A stretch of 64,000 nt of DNA, taken from the NCBI GenBank assembly GCA_017626895.1, contig JAGAHV010000159.1, forward strand, positions 36,567-100,566. The letters are read 5' to 3'. This document shows, in pieces, positions 820 to 53,148 of the stretch. Each line of letters begins with the position of its first letter. The first letter of the stretch is position 1. Position numbers and translations under genes: made by a program. A model generated the notes under the pieces. It searched no databases. It worked only from the letters and a program-made list of their open reading frames with translations, and had not been told where the DNA came from. Source of the stretch: Clostridia bacterium. Its GTDB lineage: Bacteria > Bacillota > Clostridia > Christensenellales > Aristaeellaceae.

Positions 820-2410
820 TTAACAGGTCGTATCCGACACTTTCCAGTCCTGGAGCTTTCTTGTCTGTGAATCGAATGAAACGCCTATTCTGATCACCTT
901 CCGGGAATCCGCAGCAAAAGCCAGCGCATAATCTTTCGTGTCAATCTGCTTAAGTGCTTCATTGGCCGACCCGTCCCGCTTGAATTCAAACAGATAAATA
1001 TACTTTTTGGTTTCGACCTTGCAGTCAATTCGTCCGGAATACGTATGCATCTCGCAGAGAGTGAACTTCCCCAGCAATGTAAAAACCAGATATATTACCG
1101 TCTGAAAAACATGTTCAGACGAATCTGTTTCAGGTGTACAGGTGATGTTTGCAAAAAGTGAAGTCAGCACATCTTTTATCCGATCCAGTTCACCCTGCTC
1201 AATGTACCTTCTCAGTGTGAAAATGTCATTTCCTGATCCTGCTCCGCAGTTCGCCACAAATTCGTGCATCAGGCATTCAACAAACCCATACTTAACCTCT
1301 TCATTCGGGAATGCCAGGGTATATGCACGTGCATCACGATCATAGTCTGTAATCGTCAGATAACCGGTCTGGTAGAGCAGCGGCACCGGTTCAAGACTGT
1401 ACCCCGTGTAATTCTTCAGCGTTCCTTCACCTGCATACAGCGTTCCTTCACCTGCATACAGCGTTCCATCTGTCAGCTTTCGAACATCAAAACCCGTATC
1501 CTTACATTTCCCTGTCAGAAAAGTCGGCGTGCCTGTTTCAAACCAGTACGAGCCGAAGTCTTTATCCAGCAGCGCGCCGAAAAGACTGTACGGATTATAG
1601 ACACTTTCGCTGTCCGGATGGAAATAGTATCCGTCATACTGTTTTCTTAAAGCCGCCTCACATTCCTCAGCGGTCATTTTTCTTCGCTCAGCCAAAGCAC
1701 CTGTCTCATCCTCAAAATACCAGTGCAGTTCTTCCCTGGTTATCCCGCACAGATTGGCGTAATCCGCTGACAGAGAAATGTCTCTCAGCTGGTCCACATC
1801 ACTGAAAAGACTGACTTCATTGAGCCTTGTGACGCCTGTAATAAAGATAAAACGGATGAAATCATCTGCTTTTTTCAGTCTGCTGAAAAAACCTTTGAGC
1901 ACCGCCTGCGTATGTGCGGCGCGATGCTGATCCTCCATCGTGTCAAGAAGCGGCTTATCATATTCATCTGCCAGGACGGCACAGCGCCGTCCGGTCATCT
2001 CTGCCGCCATTTCCAAAAGCCGCTCAAACCGGTATCCAAGAGTCTCATCTTTGTATTTGTCTCCGTAGATTTCCTCCCATTTCGAAAGATGCTGATTCAA
2101 CACTTTCTCGATAGACGTGTTTTCATAGTATTCTCCATTGAAATCAAAACTAAAACCGGGTAGGGTTTAAACGCGTCCGGATTATTCTTTTCAAGCTGCT
2201 CAATAGCAAGTCCGGAAAACAGTTCTCTTTTTCCTTCCCAATAGGCTTTCAATGTGGAAAGAAGAAGACTTTTCCCAAATCTTCTGGGACGGATCAGGAA
2301 ACATTTTCATGAACCAGCTGATAGATGAACGGCGTTTTATCCACGTACGCAAAGTTCTCTGTTCTCAGCTTTTCAAAGCTCTGAATGCCAATCGGCAGTT
2401 TTTTTCTCAT
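820..2410 (-). pseudogene. AAA-ATPase-like + PD-(D/E)xK (PDDEXK_9-type) family gene disrupted by at least two frameshifts
   Basis: Three minus-strand frames join into one full-length homolog of the intact paralog at 10397-12124. (i) ATG 2410 gives [38 protein letters not shown], then a stop at 2294. (ii) The shifted frame reads [48 protein letters not shown] (Walker-A-like RPRRFGKS). (iii) A further shift reads [28 protein letters not shown] and runs into ORF 820-2103, which ends with GRIDCKVETKKYIYLFEFK (PD-(D/E)xK-like). The frameshifts lie near 2293-2300 and 2150-2160. Confidence 0.75.
1417..1467. repeat. 21-bp perfect tandem duplication inside the pseudogene
   Basis: The unit CAGCGTTCCTTCACCTGCATA occurs at 1417-1437 and 1438-1458, followed by a partial third copy. 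It is in frame and encodes the duplicated GTLYAGE-GTLYAGE-GTL seen in ORF 820-2103. Confidence 0.9.
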
Positions 2411-2468
2411 TCCTTTGCCCACTTTTCTTTCGTATCTGCCGTCAGCTCCTTTGCAGGCCTCAATGTTG

Positions 2469-2535
2469 GTCGTTTGCCGGAGCTGCTTTTGTCTGAGGCC
2501 CGGATGTGATAAACTGTCGCTGCGCGACAGAGCCT
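2469..2535 (-). repeat. Intergenic hairpin-repeat family, copy A
   Basis: A perfect hairpin CTGTCGC-TGC-GCGACAG lies at 2514-2530. It is flanked by CCCGGAT and TTTGCCGG blocks that match the copies at 18257-18406 and (as reverse complement) 44724-44868. The copy sits between the LysR stop (2574) and the pseudogene start (2410). Confidence 0.6.
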
Positions 2536-2573
2536 CTCCCCTTTGCCAATGCACCGGGGAAACTGATGTCTCG

Positions 2574-6944: not shown

Positions 6945-6955
6945 TAATTGAAAAA

Positions 6956-6982
6956 ACGCAGTCCCTTCAGACTGCGTTTTTC
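6956..6982 (+). terminator. Rho-independent terminator after the permease genes
   Basis: ACGCAGTC-ccttca-GACTGCGT followed by TTTTTCTC, preceded by an A-run. Confidence 0.7.
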
Positions 6983-7058
6983 TCTTAAATGCCAGATCTC
7001 AGCCGGAACAATGCTGCATCGGCTATTGACCACCCGCTGAGACCCAGAAAGGAGTCCC

Positions 7059-15371: not shown

Positions 15372-15596
15372 TTTCCTGCCTCCTTCTCCGTTCAAAAAGG
15401 AGTTTGCCCAATCCCCGACAGCTTTTTTCAAATCCGGGTCAGCATCAGGCTGCTCCGACAAATGACCTCCCCTGCCTGCCTTTCCGTGACCTGGCCTGCC
15501 AAAATCGCGGCAGTTGAGAGCATCCGAACCCAGCGGTGCACAGGGCCAGACTGCGGCTAAAAGAGCTTTTTCAGAAAGAACCGCTTTCCTGCAGAT

Positions 15597-17027: not shown

Positions 17028-18230
17028 TCAAGTCATGATTTCCCGGCCCACGGGCGGCTCTGCAGATGCATTGTCCTGTTCATTGTCCGGATGCAGATAA
17101 TCCTTTATCCGGATGAAATACTCCCGTTCTGAATCCTCTGCAAAATCCCTTGCATCGCTTTCACATTGCTGATAATAGTAGGTATTGAAATCCCCGTCTG
17201 TACCGGTATAGTTCTGAAATTCTTCGGCATATTCCCTGATTTCCCGGAACATCATAAGACCTCTGTTTTCCTGACGGGTTTCTATCAGCAGATCGATCAG
17301 GCGATGCTGATATGCATGATAAGCCTCATGACAGACGGTATTGACCAGTTCCCACGGGGAATCGTATAACAGAGATGCCGTGCTGATCCGGATTTCATGT
17401 GTTTTGTCATGGTAGGTTCCCGCCTTGTCCCTGCTCATATCCTCAGCGCCCACATTCAGTTCATGCGGCAGGCCCAGATATCTCTGTTCAATATTGGCCA
17501 CGGTCTGAAGGACATTCAGCTTTTCCCGGGCAGTGTACTGTTCCCATCTTCCGTCAGCCAGCGCCGTCAGGGTTCCCATGTTGTTCTGGATGGTCTGTGC
17601 CTCGATATTCTGATCACTGGCCGGCGGGACCGCTGCCTTAACCAGTACCGAATTAAACGCGCGTGCCGATCCCGTTACCGCAATGATCACGGCAAAGCCG
17701 AACCCAATCATTCTCTGCAAGACCATCGCCATCCAGCGGCCCTCAGGCAGGACAGACTGCCCTGCCATAACCCGCCTGACAACCTGCCATGTAAGGAATG
17801 CCGAAACCGCAGAGGTGAGACACAGCAGCACTGTGCTGATCAGATCAGGACGGACAGGCATATAGGCAAGTACCGTATATATTCCGTATCCGATCAGCAG
17901 ATTAAAACAGACGCTGATGATATTTCTGTGATGCCGGATATTCAGGAGTGTTCCAAGACCTGTTCCGGTCAGGACAAGTCCCCACAGAACAGCCTTGGAA
18001 AGGACGAGTGTCTGATGCTCAAGGGATCTGAACAGAAAGAGCCGATACCAGACCATCCCGATCAACATCCAGAAAACGTTATTGAACAGATAATCAACGA
18101 TTCCATCCCGGTTTCCGGCAACACGGGAATGCCTTTCTTTCCGGACCGGACAGATGTATCCCTGATCAGGATGATAGCCCAGGATCACGCCGGCCTGTTC
18201 CCGCGTTGAAAAAGACTTGTTTCTTCTCAT
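17028..18230 (-). CDS. Polytopic membrane protein with a C-terminal HExxH (zinc-metalloprotease-like) domain
   Basis: ORF 17028-18278. I prefer the ATG at 18230 (MRRNKSFSTREQ...) after GAGGAGG, because the longer start would run into the repeat element. There are about 5-6 hydrophobic helices, then ...ELVNTVCHEAYHAYQHRLIDLL. I do not recognise a named family. Confidence 0.6.
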   Translation of the reverse strand: MRRNKSFSTREQAGVILGYHPDQGYICPVRKERHSRVAGNRDGIVDYLFNNVFWMLIGMVWYRLFLFRSLEHQTLVLSKAVLWGLVLTGTGLGTLLNIRHHRNIISVCFNLLIGYGIYTVLAYMPVRPDLISTVLLCLTSAVSAFLTWQVVRRVMAGQSVLPEGRWMAMVLQRMIGFGFAVIIAVTGSARAFNSVLVKAAVPPASDQNIEAQTIQNNMGTLTALADGRWEQYTAREKLNVLQTVANIEQRYLGLPHELNVGAEDMSRDKAGTYHDKTHEIRISTASLLYDSPWELVNTVCHEAYHAYQHRLIDLLIETRQENRGLMMFREIREYAEEFQNYTGTDGDFNTYYYQQCESDARDFAEDSEREYFIRIKDYLHPDNEQDNASAEPPVGREIMT

Positions 18231-18256
18231 GGCGTCATCCTCCTCTGCTCTGGTCA

Positions 18257-18406
18257 ATTGCCTGAGACACGTTGCCAATGGGTCAGATTTTCCTTACTGT
18301 CGCTGCGCGACAGAGCCACTTTGCAAGCCTCCACTCTGTTCATTTGCCTGAGACACTTTGCCAATGACCCGGATTTCCCTTACTGTCGCTGCGCGACAGG
18401 GCCACT
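18257..18406 (-). repeat. Intergenic hairpin-repeat family, tandem copies B and C (period 85 bp)
   Basis: Copies 18257-18320 and 18342-18406 share ATTTGCCTGAGACAC-TTGCCAATG-..GGATTT-CCTTA-CTGTCGCTGCGCGACAG-GCCACT. Perfect 7-bp/3-nt-loop hairpins lie at 18297-18313 and 18383-18399. A further palindrome GACAGAAAG-C-TTTCTGTC follows at 18411-18428. Confidence 0.8.
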
Positions 18407-18564
18407 GCCCTGACAGAAAGCTTTCTGTCTCCCCTCATTCGCCAGTTTCACGGAATCGTTATATCACAAAATCTCCTTTCCCTGCATTCAACTGATGGTT
18501 GAAACGGACAAAGCCTGATCAAAACCAGCCGGAGCAGAAGCTGCTCCGGCTGTATCTGGGCTGT

Positions 18565-20109
18565 TTACTTGTTCCAGGGATAGTTCTTGACGCTCTCTGC
18601 CTCCCAGTTCAGGCGGCCATAGCTGCGGGTCAGACCGAAAATCTTCTTCTCAACCTTTTTGGTCAGCATGCCCGGACGGAGACGCCAGAACCAGTTGTCC
18701 TCCTGATGGGCAGGATTGTTGATTCTCGCCTCGCTGCCCAGTCCGAGATGATCCTGAAGCTGAATGACACAGGTCTCAGCACGGCTGATCATGGCTGCGC
18801 GGACAAATACCTCATTCATATGCGGCGCATCGCTCATTCTGACGCCGAAGTAATCGCAGATCATCTGCTGGACTTCCGGCTTCAGGGAGGCAAACCAGCC
18901 GTTCACCGGATCATTGTCATGGGTTCCCGGATAAACCACGCAGTGCTCCGGAATGTTATGAATCAGATAATCATTCAGGGCATGGGTGTCATCGGGATCA
19001 AAGGCAAACTGCAGGACCTTCATGTTCGGAAAACCAGATTCGCGCACCATCTGCCGGACGGATTCGGTCATGTACCCCAGATCCTCCACGATGACCGGCT
19101 TGTATCCCATGTTCCGCGCCATCTGATGGAACAGAGCCATTCCGGGTCCCTTCTTCCATTCGCCGTCTTTTGCCCCTTTTCCTGCCGGGATGGAGAAATA
19201 CTCATCCAGGCCGCGGAAATGGTCGATTCTCAGCAGATCGCACTGTTCAAAATTGTACCAGAGGCGGGCCATCCACCAGCCGAACCCGTCCTCCATATGC
19301 TTATCCCAGCGGTACAGCGGCGTTCCCCAGATCTGACCATCCACCGCGAAATCATCCGGCGGGCAGCCCGCAACCGCAGTCTGATGATTGTCCTCATCCA
19401 GCTGGAACATGTCCGGATGCGCCCAGACATCCGCGCTGTCAAAGGAAACATAGATCGGAATATCGCCGATAATCTGAATCTTTTTGCCGTTGGCATAGGC
19501 TTTCAGTGCTCTCCACTGCTGATCGAATTCAAACTGCAGGAACTTGTGGAATTCAATGTCGAAATAAAGTTCCCGGTTGTAATAATCAATGGCATTCTGC
19601 CAGCGATGGCTGATGTCGTGCGGCCATTCAGGCCATTCTTTTCCACCGAAAAAGTCCTTGAGCGCCATGAACAGGGCGTAGTCATCCAGCCACCATCCAT
19701 TGTTCCGGGTAAATTCCTGATAGTCCTCCCGCTTGTAGATCTCGCTGCGCTCATAGGCTTTTCTCAGCAGCGGCAGCCGGCGGGCATTCAGTTTCTCGTA
19801 ATCAATCCTGTCCGGATCATTTCCGAAGTCCTCGGCATCAATTTCCTCGCGAGTCAAAAGGCCTTCCTTCTCCAGTGCATCCAGACTGATGTAAAACGGA
19901 TTTCCGGCAAACGCGGAGAAGCCCTGATAAGGTGAATCATACGCCAGAGGCATATGGTTCGGCGGGTTCAGGGGCAGGATCTGCCAGTAGGTCTGTCCGG
20001 ATCTCTCCAGAAAATCGACAAACTGATACGCCGCCTCATCAAAACAACCGATCCCGTATTTGCTGGGAAGACTGGAAACAGGCATAAGAATTCCCGCAGT
20101 GCGACTCAT
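18565..20109 (-). CDS. malQ: 4-alpha-glucanotransferase (amylomaltase, GH77)
   Basis: ORF 18565-20124. The ATG at 20109 (MSRTAGILMPVSSLPSKYGIGCF) follows GAGGAG. Also present are ILPLNP and SPYQGFSAFAGNPFYISL. Confidence 0.9.
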   Translation of the reverse strand: MSRTAGILMPVSSLPSKYGIGCFDEAAYQFVDFLERSGQTYWQILPLNPPNHMPLAYDSPYQGFSAFAGNPFYISLDALEKEGLLTREEIDAEDFGNDPDRIDYEKLNARRLPLLRKAYERSEIYKREDYQEFTRNNGWWLDDYALFMALKDFFGGKEWPEWPHDISHRWQNAIDYYNRELYFDIEFHKFLQFEFDQQWRALKAYANGKKIQIIGDIPIYVSFDSADVWAHPDMFQLDEDNHQTAVAGCPPDDFAVDGQIWGTPLYRWDKHMEDGFGWWMARLWYNFEQCDLLRIDHFRGLDEYFSIPAGKGAKDGEWKKGPGMALFHQMARNMGYKPVIVEDLGYMTESVRQMVRESGFPNMKVLQFAFDPDDTHALNDYLIHNIPEHCVVYPGTHDNDPVNGWFASLKPEVQQMICDYFGVRMSDAPHMNEVFVRAAMISRAETCVIQLQDHLGLGSEARINNPAHQEDNWFWRLRPGMLTKKVEKKIFGLTRSYGRLNWEAESVKNYPWNK

Positions 20110-20232
20110 GATAAATCTCCTCACTTATAAGTTCTCTGACGGTTTTTCATTTTGGGAACGGAAAAACCGGACACTATTTTAACAATTTCACCCTTCAAGT
20201 TCAATATCCATCTTAATCATCCGGACAAGAGA

Positions 20233-20373
20233 GGCCCAACCAGCGACAGATTGTCAGATCCGGACCATGACAAAGCCTCTCAGGCAAATGACCGGCCGTG
20301 AGACCCGCAAAAGAGTGCCCCATGCAGCGCCAGTTTGTCAGATTCCTGTCGGAACAAAGCCGTATGGCTGACA
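20233..20373 (+). repeat. Intergenic hairpin-repeat family, two decayed tandem copies H and I (period about 84 bp)
   Basis: Copy H (20233-20290) reads CAGCGACAGATTGTCAGATCCGGACCATGACAAAGCCTCTCAGGCAAATGA. It aligns with the reverse complement of copy C (CAGCGACAGTAAGGGAAATCCGGGTCATTGGCAAAGTGTCTCAGGCAAATGA). The left hairpin arm is degenerate. The second copy (20319-20373) is more decayed. Confidence 0.5.
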
Positions 20374-24261: not shown

Positions 24262-24847
24262 TGTAAATCTCAACTCCTCAATTAATTTCGTTCATTAGAT
24301 CGTATCTATGATCACCATTTTCCCTGAAGGAACGCACATCATCATCCTGATGCCGGTCACAGGAAAACGGCCCTCTCTTTTTGCTCATCATCTTTCCATC
24401 ATCCGAAGCCGCGAATGACGCTTGCCCGTCATCCTCCGACTCTTCTGCCACATTCTTTTATCCAAATTTTATCAGAATTTCGACGCCTGCTCAACCTGTT
24501 TTTATTTCCCGGTTCCCTGCAGATTGACCGCTCTCCGGCTGTGCCCTGGGTCCGTCCAAATCTGTTTGAGAGCCTTTTTCGCGATTCCTTTCTGCAGACA
24601 CATTCACGGCTTGACAACTTCCCTGCTTCAGGGCATACTGTTCCGCAGCTTTGCAAACACCGCCAATGATCCCTGTCGCAGCCAGTGAATGTCGCGTTTC
24701 TGTCCGCCGTGGCATTTCCCGTCATTCGTCTGTTTTTCGCAGTGGCCGCGCCTGAGGAGCGGTCCTGTCCTGCAGCGACCGTTTGTCATACAGGGCCGGA
24801 ACAAATCTGCTCCGGGAAAAGATCCGCATTGAGAGGGAGGAAGATAC

Positions 24848-25504
24848 ATGCACCAACCTGTTACCGTTTATGCACTTCATACCGCTGACATTCAGCAGAT
24901 GGACTGGACACCGTTATATACGGCGATGCCGGAACGCATGAAGAAAGCGGAACGTTTCCGTTTTGAGAAAGATCGTCTTCTCTGTATCGGCGCAGGACTG
25001 CTCCTGCTGCATGCTCTCCCGCTTCGCAATGAATCTGAACTGCAGACCGGTCCATACGGAAAACTGTTTGTTCCGGGAAAACGCTTTTTCAATCTTTCCC
25101 ACAGCGGACACTGGTGCATTCTTGCAGCCGGCGATATGGAGATTGGCGCAGACATTGAAGAAATCCGTGAAAGCAATGTTTCCATCGCCTCATCCATTTA
25201 TTCTCCCCGGGAGATTGAATGGATGAATGAGCAGCCTCTGGACCGGTTTCATGTGCTCTGGACCTGGAAAGAAAGTGTCATGAAAGCGACCGGACTCGGT
25301 CTGAATCTTAACCCAAAATCCATTGATGTGCTTCCTTTCACCCAGGACAAACCGATTTTCCTGAATGGCCGTACCTGGTACGCAAAAAGCGGCAATATTC
25401 CCGGATACCGATACAGCCTCTGCACGGCTCACCCCATCGACAGCTGGAACTGGGTTGACGGTTCAGCCCTCATTCATCCGTCCGGTCAGGAGACGGCCAA
25501 TTAG
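24848..25504 (+). CDS. 4'-phosphopantetheinyl transferase, Sfp type
   Basis: ORF track, 218 aa. The motifs are FNLSHSGHW, IGADIEEI and WTWKESVMKATG. RBS GGGAGGAAG. Confidence 0.85.
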   Translation: MHQPVTVYALHTADIQQMDWTPLYTAMPERMKKAERFRFEKDRLLCIGAGLLLLHALPLRNESELQTGPYGKLFVPGKRFFNLSHSGHWCILAAGDMEIGADIEEIRESNVSIASSIYSPREIEWMNEQPLDRFHVLWTWKESVMKATGLGLNLNPKSIDVLPFTQDKPIFLNGRTWYAKSGNIPGYRYSLCTAHPIDSWNWVDGSALIHPSGQETAN

Positions 25505-30143: not shown

Positions 30144-30324
30144 ACATACCTCCTGAAAACGGTTTTATTGTCGATCAAATTATACCAAGTACCATCCGAT
30201 TCAGCAAGTAAAGAAACAACGCTCATAGCCTGCTCCAGGGATCATCCGCGTTCATCCCCGGCAGAATCGAAATCCGGCACTGACCGGCTGCCGATTTGGT
30301 CCCTGAACTTCTTCACAGACGATA

Positions 30325-33951: not shown

Positions 33952-34040
33952 GGAGAGATGGCCGAGGGGTTTAAGGCGCTGGTCTTGAAAACCAGTGATA
34001 CCGCAAGGTACCGGGGGTTCGAATCCCTCTCTCTCCGCCA
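33952..34040 (+). tRNA. tRNA-Ser (anticodon TGA)
   Basis: The acceptor stem is GGAGAGA/TCTCTCC. The anticodon stem-loop is CTGGT-CTTGAAA-ACCAG. It has a long variable arm, the T-loop GGTTCGAATCC and an encoded CCA. Confidence 0.9.
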
Positions 34041-34063
34041 ATTTCATATTTCACTGGCCATAC

Positions 34064-34152
34064 GCGGAAGTACCCAAGTGGCCAAAGGGGCTCCCCTGCT
34101 AAGGGAGTAGCACTCGTGAAGGGTGGCGTGGGTTCAAATCCCACCTTCCGCG
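34064..34152 (+). tRNA. tRNA-Ser (anticodon GCT)
   Basis: The acceptor stem is GCGGAAG/CTTCCGC. The anticodon stem-loop is CTCCC-CTGCTAA-GGGAG. It has a long variable arm and the T-loop GGTTCAAATCC. CCA is not encoded. Confidence 0.9.
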
Positions 34153-44658: not shown

Positions 44659-44723
44659 AACCTGTCAGCGATAAGCACCGGATGAGCAGCGGTGCCGGAG
44701 AGCTAGTCCCTGCTCATAAAGAA

Positions 44724-44868
44724 GCAGTCCTGTCGCACAGCGACAGTCTGTAAAAATCCAGGCTTCATGCACTCTTGCTCCGGCAAATGACAGCTGTGAG
44801 GCCTGCTGTCTCGCAGCGACAGTATGTCAAATTTGGGCCAGAACAAAGTCGCTCCGGCGAAAGACCAG
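44724..44868 (+). repeat. Intergenic hairpin-repeat family, tandem copies D and E (period 76 bp)
   Basis: Copy D has the hairpin CTGTCGC-ACA-GCGACAG (44730-44746), then TCTGTAAAAATCCAGG...GCTCCGGCAAATGACAG. Copy E has CTGTCTC-GCA-GCGACAG (44806-44822, one mismatch), then TATGTCAAATTTGGG...GCTCCGGCGAAAGAC. Both are the reverse complement of copies A-C. Confidence 0.7.
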
Positions 44869-44897
44869 CATAGAGGCCCACAAAGGAGACCCGAACC

Positions 44898-45656
44898 ATG
44901 GAAGTACGTTATTACAAAGAATATTCACCTGCGCTCGGCCGCGATATGGAGTTCAAGGTATATGGTCATCAGGGAAAACCCGTACTGTTCATTCCCTGTC
45001 AGGCCGGACGTTTCTATGATTTTGAGAATTTCCATATGACCGATGTCTTTGCGCCCTGGATTGACAGCGGAAAGATTACCGTCTATTCCATTGATACCAT
45101 TGACAATGAAACCTGGGCGAATAAAGACGGCGACCCACGCTGGCGCATTGAGCGGCATGAGGCGTGGTATCATTACATTGTCGACCAGATGGTTCCGCGT
45201 ATCGGAGACCTCTCCGGCGAACGGAATCACTCCTATACCCCCATCATGACCTTTGGCTGCTCGCTGGGCGCCATGCACGCCGCCAACCTGTTTTTCCGGC
45301 GTCCGGACCTTTTTGATTCCGTCCTGGCACTTTCCGGAATCTATGATTCACGCGAGAGTTTCGGGGATTACATGGATGATCTGGTTTACATGAATTCTCC
45401 CTGCGATTATCTTTCCGGCATGTCCCCCAACCATCCGTGGATTCATATGTACAACGAACGCCGGATTATCATCTGCGTGGGACAGGGTGCCTGGGAGGAT
45501 ATCCTGAAAGAAAGTACCGCCCGGCTGAAAGGCGTCCTTGAGAGCAAAGGCATTAATGCCTGGGTGGATTTCTGGGGATTTGATGTCAACCATGACTGGG
45601 ACTGGTGGTATAAGCAGACCGCCTATTACCTGCCTTTCCTGATGGGAGAAGCCTGA
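44898..45656 (+). CDS. Esterase-family alpha/beta hydrolase (PF00756 type), second paralog
   Basis: ORF track, 252 aa. The start is MEVRYYKEYSPALGRDMEFKVYGHQGKPVLFIP and the elbow is FGCSLGAMHAANL. RBS AAAGGAG. Confidence 0.75.
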   Translation: MEVRYYKEYSPALGRDMEFKVYGHQGKPVLFIPCQAGRFYDFENFHMTDVFAPWIDSGKITVYSIDTIDNETWANKDGDPRWRIERHEAWYHYIVDQMVPRIGDLSGERNHSYTPIMTFGCSLGAMHAANLFFRRPDLFDSVLALSGIYDSRESFGDYMDDLVYMNSPCDYLSGMSPNHPWIHMYNERRIIICVGQGAWEDILKESTARLKGVLESKGINAWVDFWGFDVNHDWDWWYKQTAYYLPFLMGEA

Positions 45657-45660
45657 AAAA

Positions 45661-45714
45661 GCAGCCCTGTTGCGCAGCGGCAGAGAAGCAAAATCCGTCA
45701 GAACCGGCAAATTA
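45661..45714 (+). repeat. Intergenic hairpin-repeat family, copy F
   Basis: CTGTTGC-GCA-GCGGCAG (45667-45683), then AGAAGCAAAATCCGTCAGAACCGGCAAATTAC. The two arm differences are G-U-compatible only when read on the plus strand. Confidence 0.6.
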
Positions 45715-45743
45715 CAACGTTAAGACCCGAAGGAGGTCCGATT

Positions 45744-46937
45744 ATGCAGAACTTTATCTTTATCTCGCCGAACTTTCCAACCAATTACTGGAAATTCTGC
45801 TCTGAACTGCAGAAAAACAACGTCCGCGTTCTCGGCATCGGGGATTGCCCGTATGATCAGCTCATGCCGGAACTGCGCGGCTCTCTGACCGAGTATTACA
45901 AGGTTTCCTCGCTCGAAAACTATGAGGAAGTTTACCGGGCAGTTGCCTTTCTGATTTTCAAGCACGGCAAAGTAGACTGGCTCGAAAGCAACAATGAATA
46001 CTGGCTTGAGCGGGACGCCGCCCTGCGCACCGCCTTCAATATCACCACCGGTTTTCATACGGAGGATATGCAGGCGGTCAAGCTGAAATCCGCCATGAAG
46101 GAATACTACGCAAAAGCCGGTATTCGCACTGCCCCGTGGCATCTGGTGGACAGCTATGATTCCTGCAGAAACTTTATCGAGCAGGTCGGTTATCCGGTCA
46201 TTGTTAAGCCGGACAACGGTGTCGGCGCCAATCATACGTATAAACTCAGCAACGATGCCGAACTCGCCGCCTTCCTGACCGAAAAACCGAATGTGCAGTT
46301 TATCATGGAAGAGTACGTGCGCGGCACTGTTCATTCCTATGATGCCATCATCGGACCGGACGGAAATCCGATGTTTGAAACTGGAAATGTCACCATGGAT
46401 TCCATCATGGACATCGTCAATACCAACGGAAACTCCTGCTATTATATTGAGAAACACCTGCCGGATGACATTCGCGATGCCGGCCGTCGCACCGTGGCTG
46501 CTTTTGGTGTACGCAGCCGTTTCATTCATTTCGAATTCTTCGTTCTGGATGAGGACCAGCCTCTGGGCAAAAAGGGCGATATTCTCGGTCTTGAGGTCAA
46601 TATGCGTCCCTCCGGCGGCTTCAGCGCAGACATGTTCAACTTTGCCAATTCAATCGATGTCTACAAAATCTGGGCAGACATGGTCGCCTATGGCAGCACC
46701 CTGATTTCCTCGGAAGGACGTGAGCATTTCTACTGCTGCTACTGCGGACGCCGTGACGGACTCAATTTCGTCATGGATCATGAGGCCATTATGCAGAAAT
46801 ACGGAAGCCGCATCAAAATGGTCCAGCGCATTCCGAAGGCCCTTTCCGGTGCCATGGCTGACATGATGTATCTGGTCAATGTCAACACCCCGGAGGAAAA
46901 GGCCGAATACTATCACGACCTTCTGGAAACCTACTGA
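45744..46937 (+). CDS. ATP-grasp-domain enzyme (carboxylate-amine ligase type), substrate unknown
   Basis: ORF track, 397 aa. It has KSAMKEYYAKAGIRTAPW and GYPVIVKPDNGVGANHTYKL, followed by LGLEVNMRPSGG. RBS GAAGGAGG. Confidence 0.8.
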   Translation: MQNFIFISPNFPTNYWKFCSELQKNNVRVLGIGDCPYDQLMPELRGSLTEYYKVSSLENYEEVYRAVAFLIFKHGKVDWLESNNEYWLERDAALRTAFNITTGFHTEDMQAVKLKSAMKEYYAKAGIRTAPWHLVDSYDSCRNFIEQVGYPVIVKPDNGVGANHTYKLSNDAELAAFLTEKPNVQFIMEEYVRGTVHSYDAIIGPDGNPMFETGNVTMDSIMDIVNTNGNSCYYIEKHLPDDIRDAGRRTVAAFGVRSRFIHFEFFVLDEDQPLGKKGDILGLEVNMRPSGGFSADMFNFANSIDVYKIWADMVAYGSTLISSEGREHFYCCYCGRRDGLNFVMDHEAIMQKYGSRIKMVQRIPKALSGAMADMMYLVNVNTPEEKAEYYHDLLETY

Positions 46938-48672: not shown

Positions 48673-50985
48673 TCACAGCTGAATAACAATCATCGGACGG
48701 ACCGAACGGTTGGTTCGGTAAACCTCTTCCCCATAGTAACCAACCGAGCCATCATATATAACATCCATCGCATGTCCGCGATTCGTTCCCGGTGTACGAA
48801 GCCACCAGTTGCAATATCCATCAAGGCTTACCCAGCCACCATGTATTTCAGCCGTTTTTGATGTCTGACACTTACGTTCTTCATCTGTTAAAAAGTATTT
48901 TTGAACATCCACTGCGGACGGTATGAAAACTCTGTCCTGCGAATCATTTCCTGGATCCGTGTGATATTCGGCATTTTCATCTGCCGTCACAGTTACCGTA
49001 ACCAGTTTATCCTGTTCTTCTGCCGAAAAAGCTGTATACAGAAAATCTTCATTCAGCCATTTCCGTAATGTGCAGGTATCCCACGAAACAGGCGTCATCT
49101 TTGTATTAAACGGCTTCGCCTCAAGGCCATACCTGCTGATACATGTTGCCTGGCCATCCTGAATATCCAGAATAATCCATTCAATACTTTCGTTTCCATT
49201 TCTTTTATTATTATCCAGTTCATAGTGACCAAACGAAATAATGTCACCAATCTTCGCAGATTCAGCCTTTTCCTCCTGTTTATTTTCCTGTTCTTTCTGA
49301 AAAACCAAATTCAGCATAATCGCAGGACGCACTGCATTGTATTCATAGTTCACTGTTTCACCTTTGCTGGTTACCTTCCCGCTTCCGTTGACAAAGGCAG
49401 CTTTGCGCTGATCACTTCCCGGTGTGCGCAGCCAATATCTGCATGCCCCCTCCTGGAATGTCTTAACGCCATTCTCCCTGGTCATACGGCTTGCAGCGCA
49501 GCGACTGTCATTGTCGTCACTCAGGTAAGTATTCACTTCGTTGACAGACAGCAGAAATACTTTATCCTGAGTATCCTTCCCTGTACCTGTTGGATGATCC
49601 GGATTTTTATCTGCCGAAACGGTAATTGTTTCCAGCTGCATCTGTTCAGCTTGTGTGAACGCTGTATTCAGAAACTCATCGTTCAGCCAGCGGCGCAATT
49701 CACACTTTTCCCAGGTAACTGCTTCAATTTTTGAGTGATAGGGTTTTGCATCCAGACCCAGCTTGCTGACACAAAGTGCCATGTCTCCCCTTACTTCGAG
49801 AACAATCCACTCAATCTCTTCCAAACCATTTCCAAGTTCATTATCCTGATTATAATGACCAAATGAAAGAACATCCCCTGCGCTGACATCCAGCCTCATT
49901 GTTTCAATGGATGCTTCAATTTCATTGGGGGCTTCTGTCGGTTCGATTGTGAGTGCCTCTGTTGGTTCTGGTGTCGGTGCTTTCGTCGGTTCCGGTGTTG
50001 GCGTCACCGTTGGTTCTGGTGTTGGTGTCTCCGTCGGTTCTGGTGTTGGCGTCACCGTCGGTTTCGGTGTGGGCGCTTCCGTCGGTTCCGGTGTGGGTGT
50101 GGGCGTCGCCGTCGGTTCCGGTGTTGGTGCCTCCGTCGGTTCCGGTGTTGGCGTCACCGTCGGTTTCGGTGTGGGTGCCTCCGTCGGTTCCGGTGTTGGC
50201 GTCACCGTCGGTTTCGGTGTGGGTGCCTCCGTCGGTTCCGGTGTTGGCACCTCGGTTGGAATCAATGCTGGAGTTGCTGTCGGTTCGACCATCGGAGCCT
50301 GTGTCGGTTCAGTTGTTTCAACTGTCAGTACAGGTGTTGGTTTCGTTTTTGAATGGAAGAAGATTGCTGAACCCAGGGCAACGAGTACCGCAGCAATTAA
50401 TCCACCAATAATCAGTGAAACCTTTTTCGTTTTCTTTGGAATTGAAATGCCCTTTTTTTCTGGTGCTGCCTCTGAACCTGTCACCGGATCAGCTTCTGTT
50501 TCTGATTCCGCCTTGTGTTTCCGTTCTAATCCGCTCTTTTCAAATGCCTCGCAGAACTTAAAAACGTATTCTTCCTCTGACATGTTGTACTTCATAATAG
50601 CCTGCAACGTTCCAATCTGGAGTTGCATGTCATCCGGAAGTTCTGTTTTTTCCAAATGAATCGCTATGAAACGCTTATGCTTCGTTATCGCAAAATTAAT
50701 TTCATTTTGGACATTCCTTCTTACTGCCGATGTCGGTGTGATCATCACTACGAACACTGTACAGTTGCTCAAAGCAGTTGCTATTTCCTTTGTCCATTCA
50801 TTGCCCGGAGAAATGCCCTCATCATACCAGACATTATAACCAGCTTCGTTGAACTTTTTGATTTCTTCGAAAACTTTGTCTGAATCCTTATGCGCATAAC
50901 TCACAAAGATATAGGGGCCTTTCCCCCTGTATGCAGGATATGGCATGCGTCCTACACCAGGAACCAGTCTGGTTTTATCACTCAT
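48673..50985 (-). CDS. Single-pass membrane protein: N-terminal TIR domain, TM helix, Pro/Thr-repeat linker, two DUF6273-like modules
   Basis: ORF track, 770 aa. The TIR_2-like region is GPYIFVSYAHKDSDKVFEEIKKFNEAGYNVWYDEGISPGNEW...CTVFVVMITPTSAVRRNVQNEINFAI. A KKGISIPKKTKK stretch precedes the TM helix VSLIIGGLIAAVLVALGSAIFF. The linker contains PTPEPTEAPTPKPTVT repeats. Two modules then carry FGHY, IEWI(V/I)L, LR(R/K)WLN, D(K/R)VF, WLRTPG and VRP. Confidence 0.8.
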   Translation of the reverse strand: MSDKTRLVPGVGRMPYPAYRGKGPYIFVSYAHKDSDKVFEEIKKFNEAGYNVWYDEGISPGNEWTKEIATALSNCTVFVVMITPTSAVRRNVQNEINFAITKHKRFIAIHLEKTELPDDMQLQIGTLQAIMKYNMSEEEYVFKFCEAFEKSGLERKHKAESETEADPVTGSEAAPEKKGISIPKKTKKVSLIIGGLIAAVLVALGSAIFFHSKTKPTPVLTVETTEPTQAPMVEPTATPALIPTEVPTPEPTEAPTPKPTVTPTPEPTEAPTPKPTVTPTPEPTEAPTPEPTATPTPTPEPTEAPTPKPTVTPTPEPTETPTPEPTVTPTPEPTKAPTPEPTEALTIEPTEAPNEIEASIETMRLDVSAGDVLSFGHYNQDNELGNGLEEIEWIVLEVRGDMALCVSKLGLDAKPYHSKIEAVTWEKCELRRWLNDEFLNTAFTQAEQMQLETITVSADKNPDHPTGTGKDTQDKVFLLSVNEVNTYLSDDNDSRCAASRMTRENGVKTFQEGACRYWLRTPGSDQRKAAFVNGSGKVTSKGETVNYEYNAVRPAIMLNLVFQKEQENKQEEKAESAKIGDIISFGHYELDNNKRNGNESIEWIILDIQDGQATCISRYGLEAKPFNTKMTPVSWDTCTLRKWLNEDFLYTAFSAEEQDKLVTVTVTADENAEYHTDPGNDSQDRVFIPSAVDVQKYFLTDEERKCQTSKTAEIHGGWVSLDGYCNWWLRTPGTNRGHAMDVIYDGSVGYYGEEVYRTNRSVRPMIVIQL
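49940..50262. repeat. Tandem coding repeats (Pro/Thr linker), including a perfect 48-bp unit present 2.6 times
   Basis: The units at 50130-50177 and 50178-50225 are identical (CCTCCGTCGGTTCCGGTGTTGGCGTCACCGTCGGTTTCGGTGTGGGTG), with a partial third copy. Diverged copies extend back to about 49940. Confidence 0.9.
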
Positions 50986-51820: not shown

Positions 51821-52891
51821 TCAAATGATCAGTCTGAGCTCCGCCTCCCGCTTCTGGATCTCCTGCAGAAGGGCAATCTGATTCCGCGCTCTGACCAGGT
51901 TATGCTCAGGATACGCCGTCTTATAATACACATCCCCATTCAGATAGTCCGTCATGAAGCGCATCGCCTGTTCGAGGGTAATCACATAGATTCCATCCGG
52001 GAGGAGCTTCCGTTCATTCTCTGTGAGAATGCTGCCCGCCTCCTCCAGATATCCCTGCGCGAAAGCCGCTGCTTTTTCAAGAGACAATGCGACTTTCGAA
52101 AGATCCGGCTCATCCTCCGCCGCCTCACTGGCGCCGGACCGGATTCCGTCACCAAAATCGTATGCGACAAAGCCCGGCATCACGGTATCCAGATCACACA
52201 CACAGATCGCCCGGCCGCTGGCTGTGTCCAAAAGGGCATTACTGGTTTTTGTATCATTGTGCACCACACGCCTGGGCAGCCGTCCTGCTTCAAATTCCTT
52301 TTCAAACAGATCAGCCCGGTCCATACACTGCATCAGCGTGACAATTTCCAGAACCACCGTCTTTTTCCGTCCACAGGCATCCCTGTCCATAGCCAGCATA
52401 AACTGGGTGACCCGGTCGACTGTATCATGGAAGGCCGGAATGGTCTCATGGAGCGAATCGACCGGAAATCCGGACAACCGCCGTTCAAAGCGACCGAAAG
52501 CCAGACCGGTTTCATAAAGCTCGTTAAGCGACGCCGGCTGTCCGCAGGCGCTGGTGTGATCGATAAAGGCATACATGCGCCAGAACCGGTCCTGCTCATC
52601 CCGGTACCAGGTTTCCCCGCCTGCTGCCGGAATCAGCGTCAGCGTTTCCCTCATGGGGTCCCCGTTTTCGCGCACAATCTGTTCTTTCAGATAGGCGGTC
52701 ACACGTTCAATGTTATGCTGAACTTCCTCCGGCTTTTTAAACACTTCCGTATTCACCCGCTGAAGAAGGTATGCATTTCCTTCCCGCGTGTCAACCCGAT
52801 AAGTATCATTGATGATTCCTGTACCGAAAGGCTTTATATCGGAAACCTCACCGGAAACCTGAAAGTGTCCGGCAGTCGTCATTACGTTCAT
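51821..52891 (-). CDS. nahK: APH-fold sugar kinase, N-acetylhexosamine 1-kinase (NahK)-like
   Basis: ORF track, 356 aa. It carries HNDTKTSNALLD, DLDTVMPGFVAYDFGDGIRSGAS, EDEPDLSKV and YPEHNLVRARNQIALLQE. From memory these match the Bifidobacterium NahK layout. RBS GAGGAG. Confidence 0.65.
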   Translation of the reverse strand: MNVMTTAGHFQVSGEVSDIKPFGTGIINDTYRVDTREGNAYLLQRVNTEVFKKPEEVQHNIERVTAYLKEQIVRENGDPMRETLTLIPAAGGETWYRDEQDRFWRMYAFIDHTSACGQPASLNELYETGLAFGRFERRLSGFPVDSLHETIPAFHDTVDRVTQFMLAMDRDACGRKKTVVLEIVTLMQCMDRADLFEKEFEAGRLPRRVVHNDTKTSNALLDTASGRAICVCDLDTVMPGFVAYDFGDGIRSGASEAAEDEPDLSKVALSLEKAAAFAQGYLEEAGSILTENERKLLPDGIYVITLEQAMRFMTDYLNGDVYYKTAYPEHNLVRARNQIALLQEIQKREAELRLII

Positions 52892-53148
52892 GGCGGTTTC
52901 TCCTCGAGTTTCATTGCTGGTCTTATGTCCGGGCAGCCTGGCAGGGCTCCGGATTTATAGGCTTTCGCCTCGCGGCCGGGCCATTCCTTTTCGGGCTTCA
53001 ATGGCTGGCCGTATCCCTGGACTGCTTCGCAAGGCTCCGAAGCAGCTTGGCTGTCGACTTCTGACAGGACTATTTCTTTCCCTGTATTATAGCGGTCCGG
53101 CCAGATTATGACAACAGGTGAAAATAAATCAATCATTTTTGTCAGTCT

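What the first reader, a model, noticed from the sequence alone, without database searches (positions are those of the whole stretch)
18257..18428. Unclassified ~65-nt intergenic hairpin-repeat family; best-preserved tandem pair
Two head-to-tail copies lie at 18257-18320 and 18342-18406, with a period of 85 bp. The shared unit is ATTTGCCTGAGACAC-TTGCCAATG-..GGATTT-CCTTA-CTGTCGC-TGC-GCGACAG-GCCACT. The core is a perfect hairpin with a 7-bp stem and a 3-nt loop. Related copies occur at 2469-2535, 20233-20373 (two, decayed), 44724-44868 (two) and 45661-45714. Possible remnants lie near 24658-24700 and 30257-30290. That gives at least nine copies in 64 kb. All are intergenic, and three times they occur as tandem pairs with periods of 76-85 bp. 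I see no ORF, no terminal inverted repeats and no target duplication. There is no U-tract after the hairpin, so this is neither a plain terminator nor an obvious MITE or IS. Six copies (A, B, C, D, E, F) lie just 3' of a gene and in that gene's sense orientation (LysR, malQ, and both esterases). This would fit a REP/BIME-like 3'-UTR element involved in mRNA stabilisation, a protein-binding site or a small-RNA source. The pair at 20233-20373 breaks that rule.
Basis: seen in the sequence. Interest (0 to 1): 0.6.

Follow-up and report, generated by a model that had tools for sequence, protein, structure and literature searches.

The report
Mobile repeat that supplies ribosome-binding sites
The hairpin repeat is real but far bigger than reported: about 470 copies of an ~88-nt, strand-specific element fill this rumen Christensenella-like genome, sitting just in front of genes and ending in the ribosome-binding site those genes use, which looks like a mobile element that lands on ribosome-binding sites and rebuilds them.

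Summary
The tandem pair at 18248-18406 is real: period 86, with a 7-bp/3-nt hairpin core. It belongs to a family of about 468 hits in 378 loci (about 1% of this 4.23-Mb genome), with 12-13 copies in the window.

GGAG | YGGCC-CTGTCGC-GCA-GCGACAG-TTTGTCAAATCC-[GGCCTCA...~30 nt...TGAGGCC]-TGCAAAGGAG | N3-12-ATG

- **Position.** In 87% of loci the downstream gene is on the same strand. In at least 61% of loci with an intact 3' end, the element's terminal GGAG lies 3-15 nt (mode 8) before a start codon. The element therefore forms 5' leaders or intercistronic spacers, not 3' UTRs.
- **Distribution.** It occurs in only three species of one genus and in none of about 190 other genomes of the family and order.
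- **Polymorphism.** Three clean empty sites show one pre-existing SD becoming SD-element-SD. Unit number varies within the species.
- **Other searches.** There are no terminal inverted repeats, no variable target duplication, no Rfam match and no linked transposase.

Best reading: a lineage-specific, non-autonomous mobile repeat that inserts at Shine-Dalgarno motifs and restores them. Its behaviour is closest to MIRUs and its anatomy to IS200/IS605-type or REP elements. The mobilising mechanism is unknown.

The parts
18317..18417 (-). Distal unit of the tandem pair. Hairpin 1 core lies at 18383-18399.
   Evidence: Covariance model R1 scores 79.6 bits, E=1.9e-19. nhmmer places it at 18319-18408. 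This unit is absent from the sister genome G008, which has a single unit here.
18235..18321 (-). Proximal unit of the tandem pair. Hairpin 1 core lies at 18297-18313. Its 3' end runs into the SD of the downstream gene.
   Evidence: R1 scores 42.8 bits. nhmmer places it at 18242-18321. It is orthologous to the single unit in G008.
18238..18246 (-). Shine-Dalgarno sequence AGAGGAGGA at the 3' end of the proximal unit, 7 nt before the ATG at 18230.
   Evidence: Read directly from the sequence.
17028..18230 (-). Downstream gene served by the pair. It is 400 aa with a weak SprT-like match.
   Evidence: ORF list and Pfam. It shares 89% aa identity with G008.
18526..18552 (-). Intrinsic terminator of the upstream malQ gene (18565-20124). 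It shows that the repeat pair lies in a separate 5' leader.
   Evidence: Terminator scan finds 12 pairs followed by GTTTTGATCA. Pfam identifies GH77.
2447..2548 (-). Best-preserved single copy in the window. It lies about 35 nt upstream of the ATG (about 2409) of a frameshifted AAA-ATPase/PDDEXK gene.
   Evidence: R1 scores 100.2 bits. The copy is absent at the orthologous G008 site. The Pfam match to the gene starts at profile position 102.
6946..7053 (+). Partial copy (3' half) whose AAAGGAG is the SD of the gene starting at 7059.
15390..15505 (+). Weak, decayed copy lying antisense to both neighbouring genes.
   Evidence: R1 scores 25 bits, E=7e-5. nhmmer places it at 15416-15467.
20219..20362 (+). 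Decayed tandem pair, antisense to both flanking minus-strand genes. It belongs to the roughly 13% minority class.
   Evidence: R1 scores 56.3 bits for the first unit. nhmmer finds 20241-20318 and 20323-20362. The pair is conserved in G008.
24747..24838 (+). Copy with a degenerate hairpin. Its GGGAGGA tail is the SD of the gene starting at 24848.
44712..44890 (+). Tandem pair between the two esterase genes. The last unit's AAAGGAG is the SD of the gene starting at 44898.
   Evidence: Conspecific metagenome contigs carry 1 or 2 units here.
45649..45745 (+). Shortened copy between the esterase 2 stop and the ATP-grasp gene. Its GAAGGAGG tail is the SD of the gene starting at 45744.
52898..53085 (-). 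Decayed tandem pair in the leader of the gene 51821-52891. A TATAAT box lies about 22 nt upstream of the first hairpin.

Best explanation
This is a lineage-specific, strand-oriented, non-autonomous mobile repeat of about 88 nt.

**Anatomy (sense strand).**
- The element is flanked 5' by a host (A)AGGAG.
- It then has a 5-nt linker (YGGCC) and hairpin 1 (CTGTCGC-GCA-GCGACAG).
- Next comes TTTGTCAAATCC.
- A second helix (GGCCTCA...TGAGGCC) encloses about 30 nt.
- A single-stranded tail follows, ending in AAAGGAG.

**How it most likely works.** The element integrates immediately 3' of a pre-existing Shine-Dalgarno motif, on the coding strand and in one orientation. Its own terminal AAAGGAG then takes over as the SD, at the original distance from the start codon. 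Insertion is therefore nearly neutral for the host. Because every insertion recreates a target, further units can be added head-to-tail, giving arrays of 2-4 units whose number varies between strains.

**Shown.**
- Copy number, polarity, the SD-to-start geometry and the two helices.
- Restriction to three species.
- Presence/absence and unit-number polymorphism.
- Empty sites that each hold one SD.

**Inferred.**
- Target specificity for the SD motif, as opposed to selection acting after insertion.
- Neutrality of insertion.

**Speculative.** The enzyme may be an HUH/Y1-type single-strand transposase acting in trans (IS200/IS605- or RAYT-like). It would recognise hairpin 1 and cleave after GGAG.
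For: **Abundance and layout**
- nhmmer finds 468 hits at E<0.01 in 378 loci: 308 singles, 54 doubles, 12 triples and 4 quadruples. The period is 86-90 nt. By a crude gene call, 362 hits are fully intergenic.

**Polarity**
- The downstream gene is co-oriented in 303 of 349 loci.
- In 182 of 296 loci with an intact 3' end, an ORF of at least 50 aa starts 3-15 nt after the terminal GGAG, with a mode of 8 nt.

**Flanks**
- The 5' flank of single copies is A-A/G-G-G/A-A-G in 60-96% of cases.
- It does not co-vary with the element's own 3' end, so there is no variable target duplication.

**Empty sites, G000 versus G008 (92-97% identical)**
- GGTAAAGGAG|TGCGG..ATG becomes GGTAAAGGAG[AGGCC...GCAAAGGAG]TGCGG..ATG (case 4).
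- TGTAAAGGAG|ATTTTTATG (case 39).
- ACAAGGGGAG|GACAGTCAGATG (case 38).
- Window copy 2447-2548 is absent in G008.
- The window tandem pair is a single unit in G008.

**Within-species variation**
- 8 of 45 comparable arrays differ by one unit between G000 and 97-99.6% identical metagenome contigs.

**Distribution**
- In 41 genomes, matches occur only in G000, G008 (at least 99) and G005 (51, diverged). One further hit, in G028, is marginal (E=8.8e-4).
- No match in 150 other genomes from the 72 genera sampled in the family.
- No match in plasmids, phages or viral contigs.

**Structure**
- The two helices are 83% paired, with 61 double-change cells against 23.8 in shuffles (0 of 500 shuffles as high).
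- The G005 subfamily has a fully compensated hairpin, CTGTTTGC/GCAAACAG, with the same GGAG...GAGGAG-N6-8-ATG layout.
- The SD tail is predicted to be open: P(unpaired) is 0.57 against 0.42 in ordinary leaders.

**Evolution and gene content**
- Whole elements evolve at least as fast as their flanks: 11.7% against 7-9% versus G008.
- The downstream genes are functionally unrelated.
Against: **No mobilising enzyme was found.**
- G000 holds only a truncated IS200 with unrelated ends.
- Y1 and IS110 transposases also occur in repeat-free species, or are missing from carriers.
- TnpB loci have no repeat next to them.
- No composite element with split ends was found.

**The family does not look recently active.**
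- Copies are old and diverged: the median nearest-neighbour identity is 0.82 and only 2 of 80 are at least 97% identical.
- No de novo insertion was seen at the strain level. Recent change is only gain or loss of units.

**Some signals point to in-situ constraint.** Between orthologues, hairpin 1 and the SD tail change about half as fast as the rest of the element. This hints at a host-level function or at palindrome self-correction.

**Exceptions to the geometry.**
- About 39% of intact arrays are not directly at a start codon.
- About 13% are antisense to their neighbours.

**Methodological limits.**
- Target specificity and post-insertion selection are not formally separated.
- Gene calls came from a home-made ORF caller.
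- All carrier genomes are fragmented MAGs.
Confidence: 0.62

Rival explanations
1. The element is a host-selected cis-acting 5'-leader RNA module. Hairpin 1 near the mRNA 5' end, plus a folded body and an exposed SD, would stabilise the mRNA or boost or standardise translation, or would bind a common protein. The family would have spread because it is useful.
For: - Between orthologues, the hairpin 1 stem changes at 2.2% against a 4.6% element mean (conspecific contigs) and at 8.7% against 11.7% (G008). The SD tail is also slow.
- Compensatory changes occur within and between subfamilies.
- A conserved G.U pair is tolerated only on the sense strand.
- The SD is kept unpaired.
- At 52898-53085 a TATAAT box lies about 22 nt upstream of the first hairpin. 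The scan showed several similar cases.
Against: - The family is present in only 3 of about 25 species of the genus and in no other genome of the family.
- The downstream genes are functionally unrelated.
- Presence/absence and unit number vary freely between close genomes.
- Whole elements evolve as fast as or faster than their flanks, and helix 2 is not constrained.
- SD accessibility equals that of shuffled upstream sequence (0.57 against 0.54).
- G.U and A.C mismatches are equally frequent in the two main helices.
Confidence: 0.2
2. This is a REP/BIME-type or terminator-type 3'-UTR element. The hairpin would protect or terminate the upstream transcript.
For: - In 225 of 348 loci the upstream gene is also co-oriented, and 62 of 186 co-directional loci begin within 30 nt of the upstream stop codon.
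- On the sense strand the hairpin is followed by TTTGT.
Against: - The association with the downstream start is much tighter. 95 loci lie between divergent genes, where no upstream 3' end exists.
- The terminator scan does not flag the hairpin, although it does find the real malQ terminator.
- Units are head-to-tail, not alternating.
- No RAYT was found.
Confidence: 0.06
3. The palindrome is an operator for one transcription factor, and the copies form a large regulon. The wider similarity would reflect duplicated promoter regions.
For: A 7-bp inverted repeat with a 3-bp spacer is a typical dimer-binding site. It is the best-conserved part of the unit.
Against: - Conservation extends over about 88 nt with a fixed polarity and an SD tail.
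- Arrays reach 4 units.
- The subfamily in G005 changed the half-sites in a compensatory way, which fits pairing rather than protein read-out.
- One third of co-directional loci sit in short intercistronic spacers without room for a promoter.
Confidence: 0.05
4. This is a pure minisatellite generated only by local slippage or unequal crossing-over, with no transposition.
For: All 8 strain-level differences are gains or losses of one unit. 8 of 72 adjacent unit pairs are at least 95% identical.
Against: - There are 378 dispersed loci, of which 308 are single units.
- Clean filled and empty sites exist at unrelated loci.
- Adjacent units are on median only 73% identical, against 64% for random pairs.
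Confidence: 0.03

Closest known systems
MIRU (mycobacterial interspersed repetitive units; Supply et al. 1997, as summarised in PMC12548453)
   Same: - Short units of 40-100 bp.
- Head-to-tail arrays with strain-variable unit number.
- Placement in intercistronic or 5' positions, oriented with transcription.
- Apparently mobile.
- Inserted at translation-initiation signals in a way thought to leave expression of the target gene intact.
   Different: - MIRUs carry a short ORF that is translationally coupled to the target gene's start codon (-4 spacing). The present element has no ORF: its period is 86-90 nt and not a multiple of 3.
- It instead duplicates or restores the Shine-Dalgarno motif.
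- The sequences are unrelated and the phylum differs (Bacillota/Christensenellales).
- It has two conserved helices.
IS200/IS605-family ends and their non-autonomous derivatives (PATEs); IS608 model (PMC3201880, PMC5027513)
   Same: - No terminal inverted repeats and no target duplication.
- Hairpins near the ends.
- Strand-specific insertion directly 3' of a short specific motif.
- The orientation bias is what targeting of the lagging-strand template would give in a genome whose genes follow replication.
   Different: - No TnpA with matching ends was found. The IS200 copies in G000 and G008 have different hairpins.
- The left hairpin is only 5 nt from the junction. My recollection, not checked here, is that IS608 has about 19 nt.
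- The element is far shorter than known PATEs.
- The motif at the left flank equals the element's own 3' end.
REP/BIME elements with RAYT transposases (PMC2817692)
   Same: - High copy number (more than 100 per genome).
- Extragenic location.
- A short GC-rich palindrome.
- Species-restricted distribution.
   Different: - The unit is about 88 nt with a second helix and an SD tail, not a 20-40-nt palindrome.
- Arrays are head-to-tail rather than alternating.
- The position is 5' of genes rather than mostly 3'.
- No RAYT gene was detected.
Pneumococcal BOX/RUP/SPRITE and other bacterial MITE-like repeats (PMC3049150; review PMC10969869)
   Same: - Lineage-restricted.
- Folded when transcribed.
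- Slow turnover compared with IS elements.
- Likely parasitic but co-transcribed with genes.
   Different: - Those families have TIRs and TSDs and are enriched between convergent genes. This one has neither and is enriched directly upstream of start codons in sense orientation.
- A term search of the 2024 MITE review found no occurrence of 'ribosome binding', 'RBS' or 'Shine'.

Membership tests
REP/BIME (RAYT-associated) | Short imperfect palindrome present in high copy number in extragenic DNA | tested here: met
   A 7-bp/3-nt hairpin is the most conserved part of the unit. There are 468 copies, 362 of them fully intergenic.
REP/BIME (RAYT-associated) | Copies arranged in alternating (inverted) orientation as BIMEs or REPINs | tested here: not met
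   All 70 multi-unit arrays are head-to-tail with a period of 86-90 nt. Only one overlapping inverted pair was noticed (C317).
REP/BIME (RAYT-associated) | Cognate RAYT (Y1 transposase) gene flanked by the repeats | tested here: not met
   PF01797 finds only a truncated IS200 in G000. Full IS200 copies in G008 have unrelated ends, and Y1 genes also occur in repeat-free species. MAG incompleteness weakens this negative result.
MITE (classical, DDE-transposon derived) | Terminal inverted repeats | tested here: not met
   The ends GGAG-YGGCCCTG and GAGGCCTGCAAAGGAG share no inverted repeat beyond the palindromic GGCC.
MITE (classical, DDE-transposon derived) | Target-site duplication that varies with the insertion site | tested here: not met
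   The 5' flank and the 3' end match no better within an element than between elements (z between -1.9 and 1.6). Both are simply SD-like.
IS200/IS605-derived non-autonomous element (PATE) | No TIR or TSD, subterminal hairpins, and oriented insertion 3' of a specific short motif | tested here: met
   Three clean empty/filled pairs place the element directly after (A)AGGAG or GGGAG. Hairpin 1 lies 5 nt from the left junction, and helix 2 ends 10 nt from the right end.
IS200/IS605-derived non-autonomous element (PATE) | A full-length IS with the same ends encoding TnpA (and optionally TnpB) | tested here: not met
   No repeat lies next to any Y1 or TnpB locus, apart from one apparently coincidental array about 250 nt from an IS200 whose ends differ. 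No split-end composite was found.
MIRU-like intercistronic minisatellite | Units of 40-100 bp in head-to-tail arrays with strain-variable number, oriented with the flanking genes | tested here: met
   Period 86-90 nt, arrays of 1-4 units, 87% co-oriented with the downstream gene. 8 of 45 arrays differ by one unit within the species.
MIRU-like intercistronic minisatellite | Internal short ORF overlapping the stop and start codons of the flanking genes (translational coupling) | tested here: not met
   The period is not a multiple of 3: 88 (17 cases), 87 (14), 89 (10), 86 (9). The junction to the gene is SD-N3-12-ATG rather than an overlapping stop/start.
Described RNA family (Rfam 15) | Match at or near a family's gathering score | tested here: not met
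   Only two tRNAs were found in the window. The best sub-threshold hit on the pair scores 12.7 bits against a 56-bit cut-off.
Intrinsic terminator | GC-rich hairpin followed by a U-tract | tested here: not met
   The scan of 18150-18620 flags the malQ terminator but not the repeat hairpins. The tail is only TTTGT.

The most novel reading that the evidence does not exclude
This would be a selfish DNA element whose integration target is the Shine-Dalgarno motif itself. It would insert after GGAG on the coding strand and carry a replacement SD at its own 3' end, so that roughly 5-6% of the genes in this genome are now translated from a transposon-borne ribosome-binding site.

The conserved GTCA..TCC segment after hairpin 1 can pair with the GGA of the target and with the linker. 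It might act as the 'guide' for cleavage, in the manner of IS200/IS605. It might equally act in the mRNA to mask the displaced old SD.

This would be a second, mechanistically distinct example, after MIRUs, of mobile DNA that hides in translation-initiation signals.
Probability: 0.4. Interest if true: 0.75.

Novelty: new variant of a known kind. Interest (0 to 1): 0.6.

Why it matters
**Selfish DNA in a compact genome.** If the reading is right, the element avoids harm by landing on a universal, short, strand-specific signal (the ribosome-binding site) and rebuilding it. Only MIRUs are thought to do something comparable, and they use a different trick.

**Annotation and assembly.**
- About 1% of this genome consists of one repeat, and at least 182 gene starts depend on it.
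- The repeat probably contributes to MAG fragmentation: 21 hits lie within 200 nt of contig ends.
- It generates spurious ORFs.

**Practical uses.**
- The family gives a natural set of about 180 genes sharing near-identical 5' leaders. This is useful for studying leader effects on translation and mRNA decay in an uncultured rumen Christensenellaceae lineage.
- The strain-variable arrays could serve as VNTR-type strain markers.

Tried and rejected
1. **Anti-SD or riboswitch-like sequestration of the SD by the internal CTCC.** Rejected. The SD tail is more open than in ordinary leaders and as open as with shuffled upstream sequence.
2. **Coding potential or a leader peptide.** Rejected. The unit period is not a multiple of 3, and the internal TGA/ATG is not conserved.
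3. **Sigma-54 or sigma-70 promoter inside the unit.** No convincing match by eye. TATAAT-like boxes 5-80 nt upstream are only slightly commoner in sense than antisense (107 against 87 of 373). The scan of 18150-18620 found no canonical promoter.
4. **Strand assignment from G.U against A.C mismatches in the two main helices.** No asymmetry: about 51 against 52 and about 125 against 118.
5. **RNAalifold on 211 copies.** It returned an empty structure. I used the consensus fold plus pair counts instead.
6. **Linkage to Y1/IS200, TnpB or IS110 transposases.** None found.
7. **First genome-collection pattern.** The pattern was too degenerate and mostly returned chance hits in GC-rich genomes. Only Christensenella sp. 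UBA4263 had many hits.
9. **Literature searches.** I found no description of this family or of SD-targeting repeats.
Full report
**Observation.**
- Tandem Repeats Finder reports 1.8 copies of an 86-nt unit at 18248-18406, with 87% matches.
- The 17-nt core CTGTCGC-TGC-GCGACAG is perfect at 18297-18313, 18383-18399 and 2514-2530. With up to 3 mismatches it occurs 11 times in the window, against 0.27 expected.
They also find a tandem pair at 52898-53085 (-), a half-copy at 6946-7053 (+), a copy at 24747-24838 (+) and a weak one at 15390-15505 (+).
- The suggested remnants at 24658-24700 and 30257-30290 are not detected.
- Rfam holds nothing similar.

**Orientation and anatomy.** On that strand the consensus unit reads:

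(A)AGGAG | YGGCC CTGTCGC-GCA-GCGACAG TTTGTCAAATCC AGGCCTCA-N~30 (containing GCTCCGGCAAATGACC)-TGAGGCCT GCAAAGGAG

- Two helices are supported: hairpin 1 (94% of cells paired) and a long-range helix 2 (75% paired).
- Together they show 61 doubly changed cells against 23.8 in shuffles (0 of 500 shuffles as high). Pairing collapses to about 30% when the partner columns are slid.
- Clear compensatory pairs were also seen in 211 copies. Examples are T-A/C-G at 154:30, C-G/T-A at 102:38 and A-T/G-C at 85:56.
- These copies are related to one another, so these numbers overstate independent events.
- The consensus RNA folds to -33.3 kcal/mol (z = -2.1) with the 3' AAAGGAG unpaired. The 5' flank GGA plus YGGC pairs with the conserved GTCA..TCC, and this helix includes a conserved G.U.

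**Genome-wide picture.** The window lies in a 4.23-Mb, 329-contig, 53% GC assembly.
- nhmmer finds 468 hits at E<0.01, covering about 39 kb.
- They form 378 loci: 308 single units, 54 doubles, 12 triples and 4 quadruples, with periods of 86-90 nt.
- With a home-made ORF caller (3214 genes, 84% coding), 362 hits are fully intergenic.
- The gene downstream of the element is on the element's strand in 303 of 349 loci. The upstream gene is co-oriented in only 225 of 348.
- In 182 of 296 loci whose last unit has an intact 3' end, an ORF of at least 50 aa starts 3-15 nt after the element's terminal GGAG, with a mode of 8 nt. Several apparent misses are coordinate slips, so 61% is a lower bound.
- The element's tail is therefore the Shine-Dalgarno sequence of at least 180 genes.
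- In the window this holds for the genes starting at 18230 (-), 7059, 24848, 44898, 45744 and 52891 (-).
- These genes are unrelated in function: SprT-like, esterase, ATP-grasp and others.
- The pair at 18248-18406 lies in a separate leader, downstream of the malQ terminator at 18526-18552.

**Flanks and insertion sites.** Single copies and the first units of arrays are preceded by an SD-like A-R-G-R-A-G motif.
- Per-position frequencies are 0.60-0.96.
- This flank does not match the element's own 3' end better within an element than between elements. There is therefore no site-dependent target duplication.

The closest relative is G008. Its contig lengths identify it as the public MAG 'Christensenella sp. 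UBA4263'. It is 92-97% identical to G000 in the aligned regions I compared. Comparing about 740 kb of it with G000 gave three clean filled/empty pairs:
- ...TAA GGTAAAGGAG|TGCGGATTTATATG (empty, G000 C36) against GGTAAAGGAG[AGGCCCTGTCGC...GAGGCCTGCAAAGGAG]TGCGGGTTTACATG (filled).
- TGTAAAGGAG|ATTTTTATG.
- ACAAGGGGAG|GACAGTCAGATG.

In each case one pre-existing SD becomes SD-element-SD, with the spacing to the ATG unchanged. Further differences between the two genomes:
- Window copy 2447-2548 is absent in G008.
- The reported tandem pair is a single unit in G008.
- Many arrays differ by one or two units, internal deletions occur, and one site carries different subfamilies in the two genomes.

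Metagenome contigs 97-99.6% identical to G000 are presumably conspecific strains. I think they come from rumen samples, though the sample source was not verified here. They differ from G000 at 8 of 45 arrays, always by one unit. This includes the window array at 44712-44890.

**Distribution.**
- The covariance model finds the family in G000, in G008 (at least 99 hits) and, as a diverged subfamily, in G005 (51 hits).
- It finds nothing in 22 other species of the genus. In 16 other families of the order the only hit is one marginal match in G028 (E=8.8e-4).
- It finds nothing in 150 other genomes from the 72 genera sampled in the family.
- It finds nothing in viral contigs, plasmids or phages.
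- The three carriers have the largest genomes of the genus (4.2-5.0 Mb).
- The G005 subfamily keeps the layout GGAG|TTGGC-hairpin-...-GAGGAG-N6-8-ATG/GTG. Its hairpin is CTGTTTGC-GCA-GCAAACAG, which is fully compensated.

**Evolutionary rates.**
- Orthologous units differ by 11.7% (plus 4.5% gaps) between G000 and G008, against 9.2% and 7.2% in the 150-nt flanks.
- They differ by 4.6% against 5.7% and 3.2% within the species (a smaller sample agrees).
- Overall the element is thus not conserved.
- Within it, the hairpin 1 stem (8.7% and 2.2%) and the SD tail (7.5% and 1.8%) change about half as fast as the rest. Helix 2 does not.
- Random copies are about 64% identical and adjacent units 73%. 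The nearest neighbour of a copy is typically 82% identical.
- Most copies therefore predate the G000/G008 split, and current activity is low.

**Interpretation.** The best explanation is a non-autonomous mobile element that integrates next to Shine-Dalgarno motifs in one orientation and carries its own SD at its 3' end. The evidence combines as follows:
- Narrow phylogenetic range and hundreds of dispersed copies.
- Insertion polymorphism with an SD at every clean junction.
- No TIR or TSD, and strict polarity.
- Unrelated downstream genes.
- Near-neutral evolution.

Because each insertion regenerates the target, head-to-tail arrays follow naturally. Slippage or unequal exchange then modulates unit number.

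In its effect, the closest parallel is the MIRU family. A recent review describes MIRUs as mobile units that insert at start codons so that an internal ORF couples to the target gene, 'with minimal impact on expression' (PMC12548453, citing Supply et al. 1997). Here the same end is reached by restoring the SD instead of by translational coupling.

In anatomy, the element resembles IS200/IS605-type ends. These have subterminal hairpins, no TIR or TSD, and insert 3' of a specific tetranucleotide into single-stranded DNA of the lagging-strand template (PMC3201880, PMC5027513). Such a mechanism would also explain the co-orientation with genes. This remains speculation for the following reasons:
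- No Y1 transposase, TnpB or IS110 enzyme is linked to the repeat.
- None has matching ends.
- Their presence does not track the repeat.
- MAG assemblies often lose multi-copy IS elements, so the negative result is weak.

**Rivals.**
- **Host-selected leader module** (mRNA stabiliser or translation standardiser). This rival keeps some weight because hairpin 1 is mildly constrained in situ and because the SD is held open (0.57 against 0.42 in ordinary leaders). However, shuffled upstream sequence gives 0.54, and the family's patchy, polymorphic distribution argues against an essential role.
This fails on position, array geometry and the absence of a RAYT.
- **Operator/regulon reading.** This fails on unit length, arrays, intercistronic placement and the compensatory evolution of the half-sites.
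- **Pure minisatellite.** This fails on the 308 dispersed single units and the empty sites.

**Limits.**
- Gene calls were crude.
- All carrier genomes are MAGs.
- Only three clean empty sites were found.
- Target preference and post-insertion selection were not separated.

Noticed in passing
window 820-2409 (-): The AAA-ATPase_like/PDDEXK_9 gene seems truncated or frameshifted. The longest ORF (820-2103) matches the Pfam AAA-ATPase model only from profile position 102. The conserved start (AAAGGAATGAGAAA, about 2409) lies some 300 nt upstream and is shared with G008.
   Followed up: partly
G000 contig C234:12329-12463 (outside the window): A truncated IS200-type Y1 transposase of 56 aa, with the usual CCCCACATGATGTGGGG hairpin. 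A full copy in G008 (C60:73357-73716) has three or four diverged units of the repeat about 250 nt downstream. This adjacency looks coincidental.
   Followed up: partly
G000 C270:12977-13084 versus G008 C91 (L154:12473-12741): At one orthologous site G000 has one unit of one subfamily. G008 has three units of another subfamily, and the flanks are 97-100% identical. This suggests either repeated insertion at the same SD or gene conversion between copies.
   Followed up: partly
genus-level comparison: The three repeat-bearing species have genomes of 4.2-5.0 Mb. The other 22 sampled species of the genus have 1.7-3.3 Mb. The repeat accounts for only about 1% of the genome, so something else also expanded.
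   Followed up: no
window 48673-50985 (-), repeats at 49955-50253: A long ORF contains 24/48-nt tandem repeats (TRF rows). Earlier notes describe it as a membrane TIR-domain protein with a Pro/Thr stalk. I did not examine it here.
   Followed up: no
window 33952-34152 (+): Two adjacent tRNA genes are the only Rfam gathering-level hits in the window.
   Followed up: no
G000 contigs C59:42-248, C211:12-80, C329:7414-7647: TnpB-like (Cas12f1-like_TNB) fragments, two of them at contig starts. This suggests unassembled multi-copy IS605/IS1341-type elements in this MAG. No repeat unit lies next to them.
   Followed up: partly
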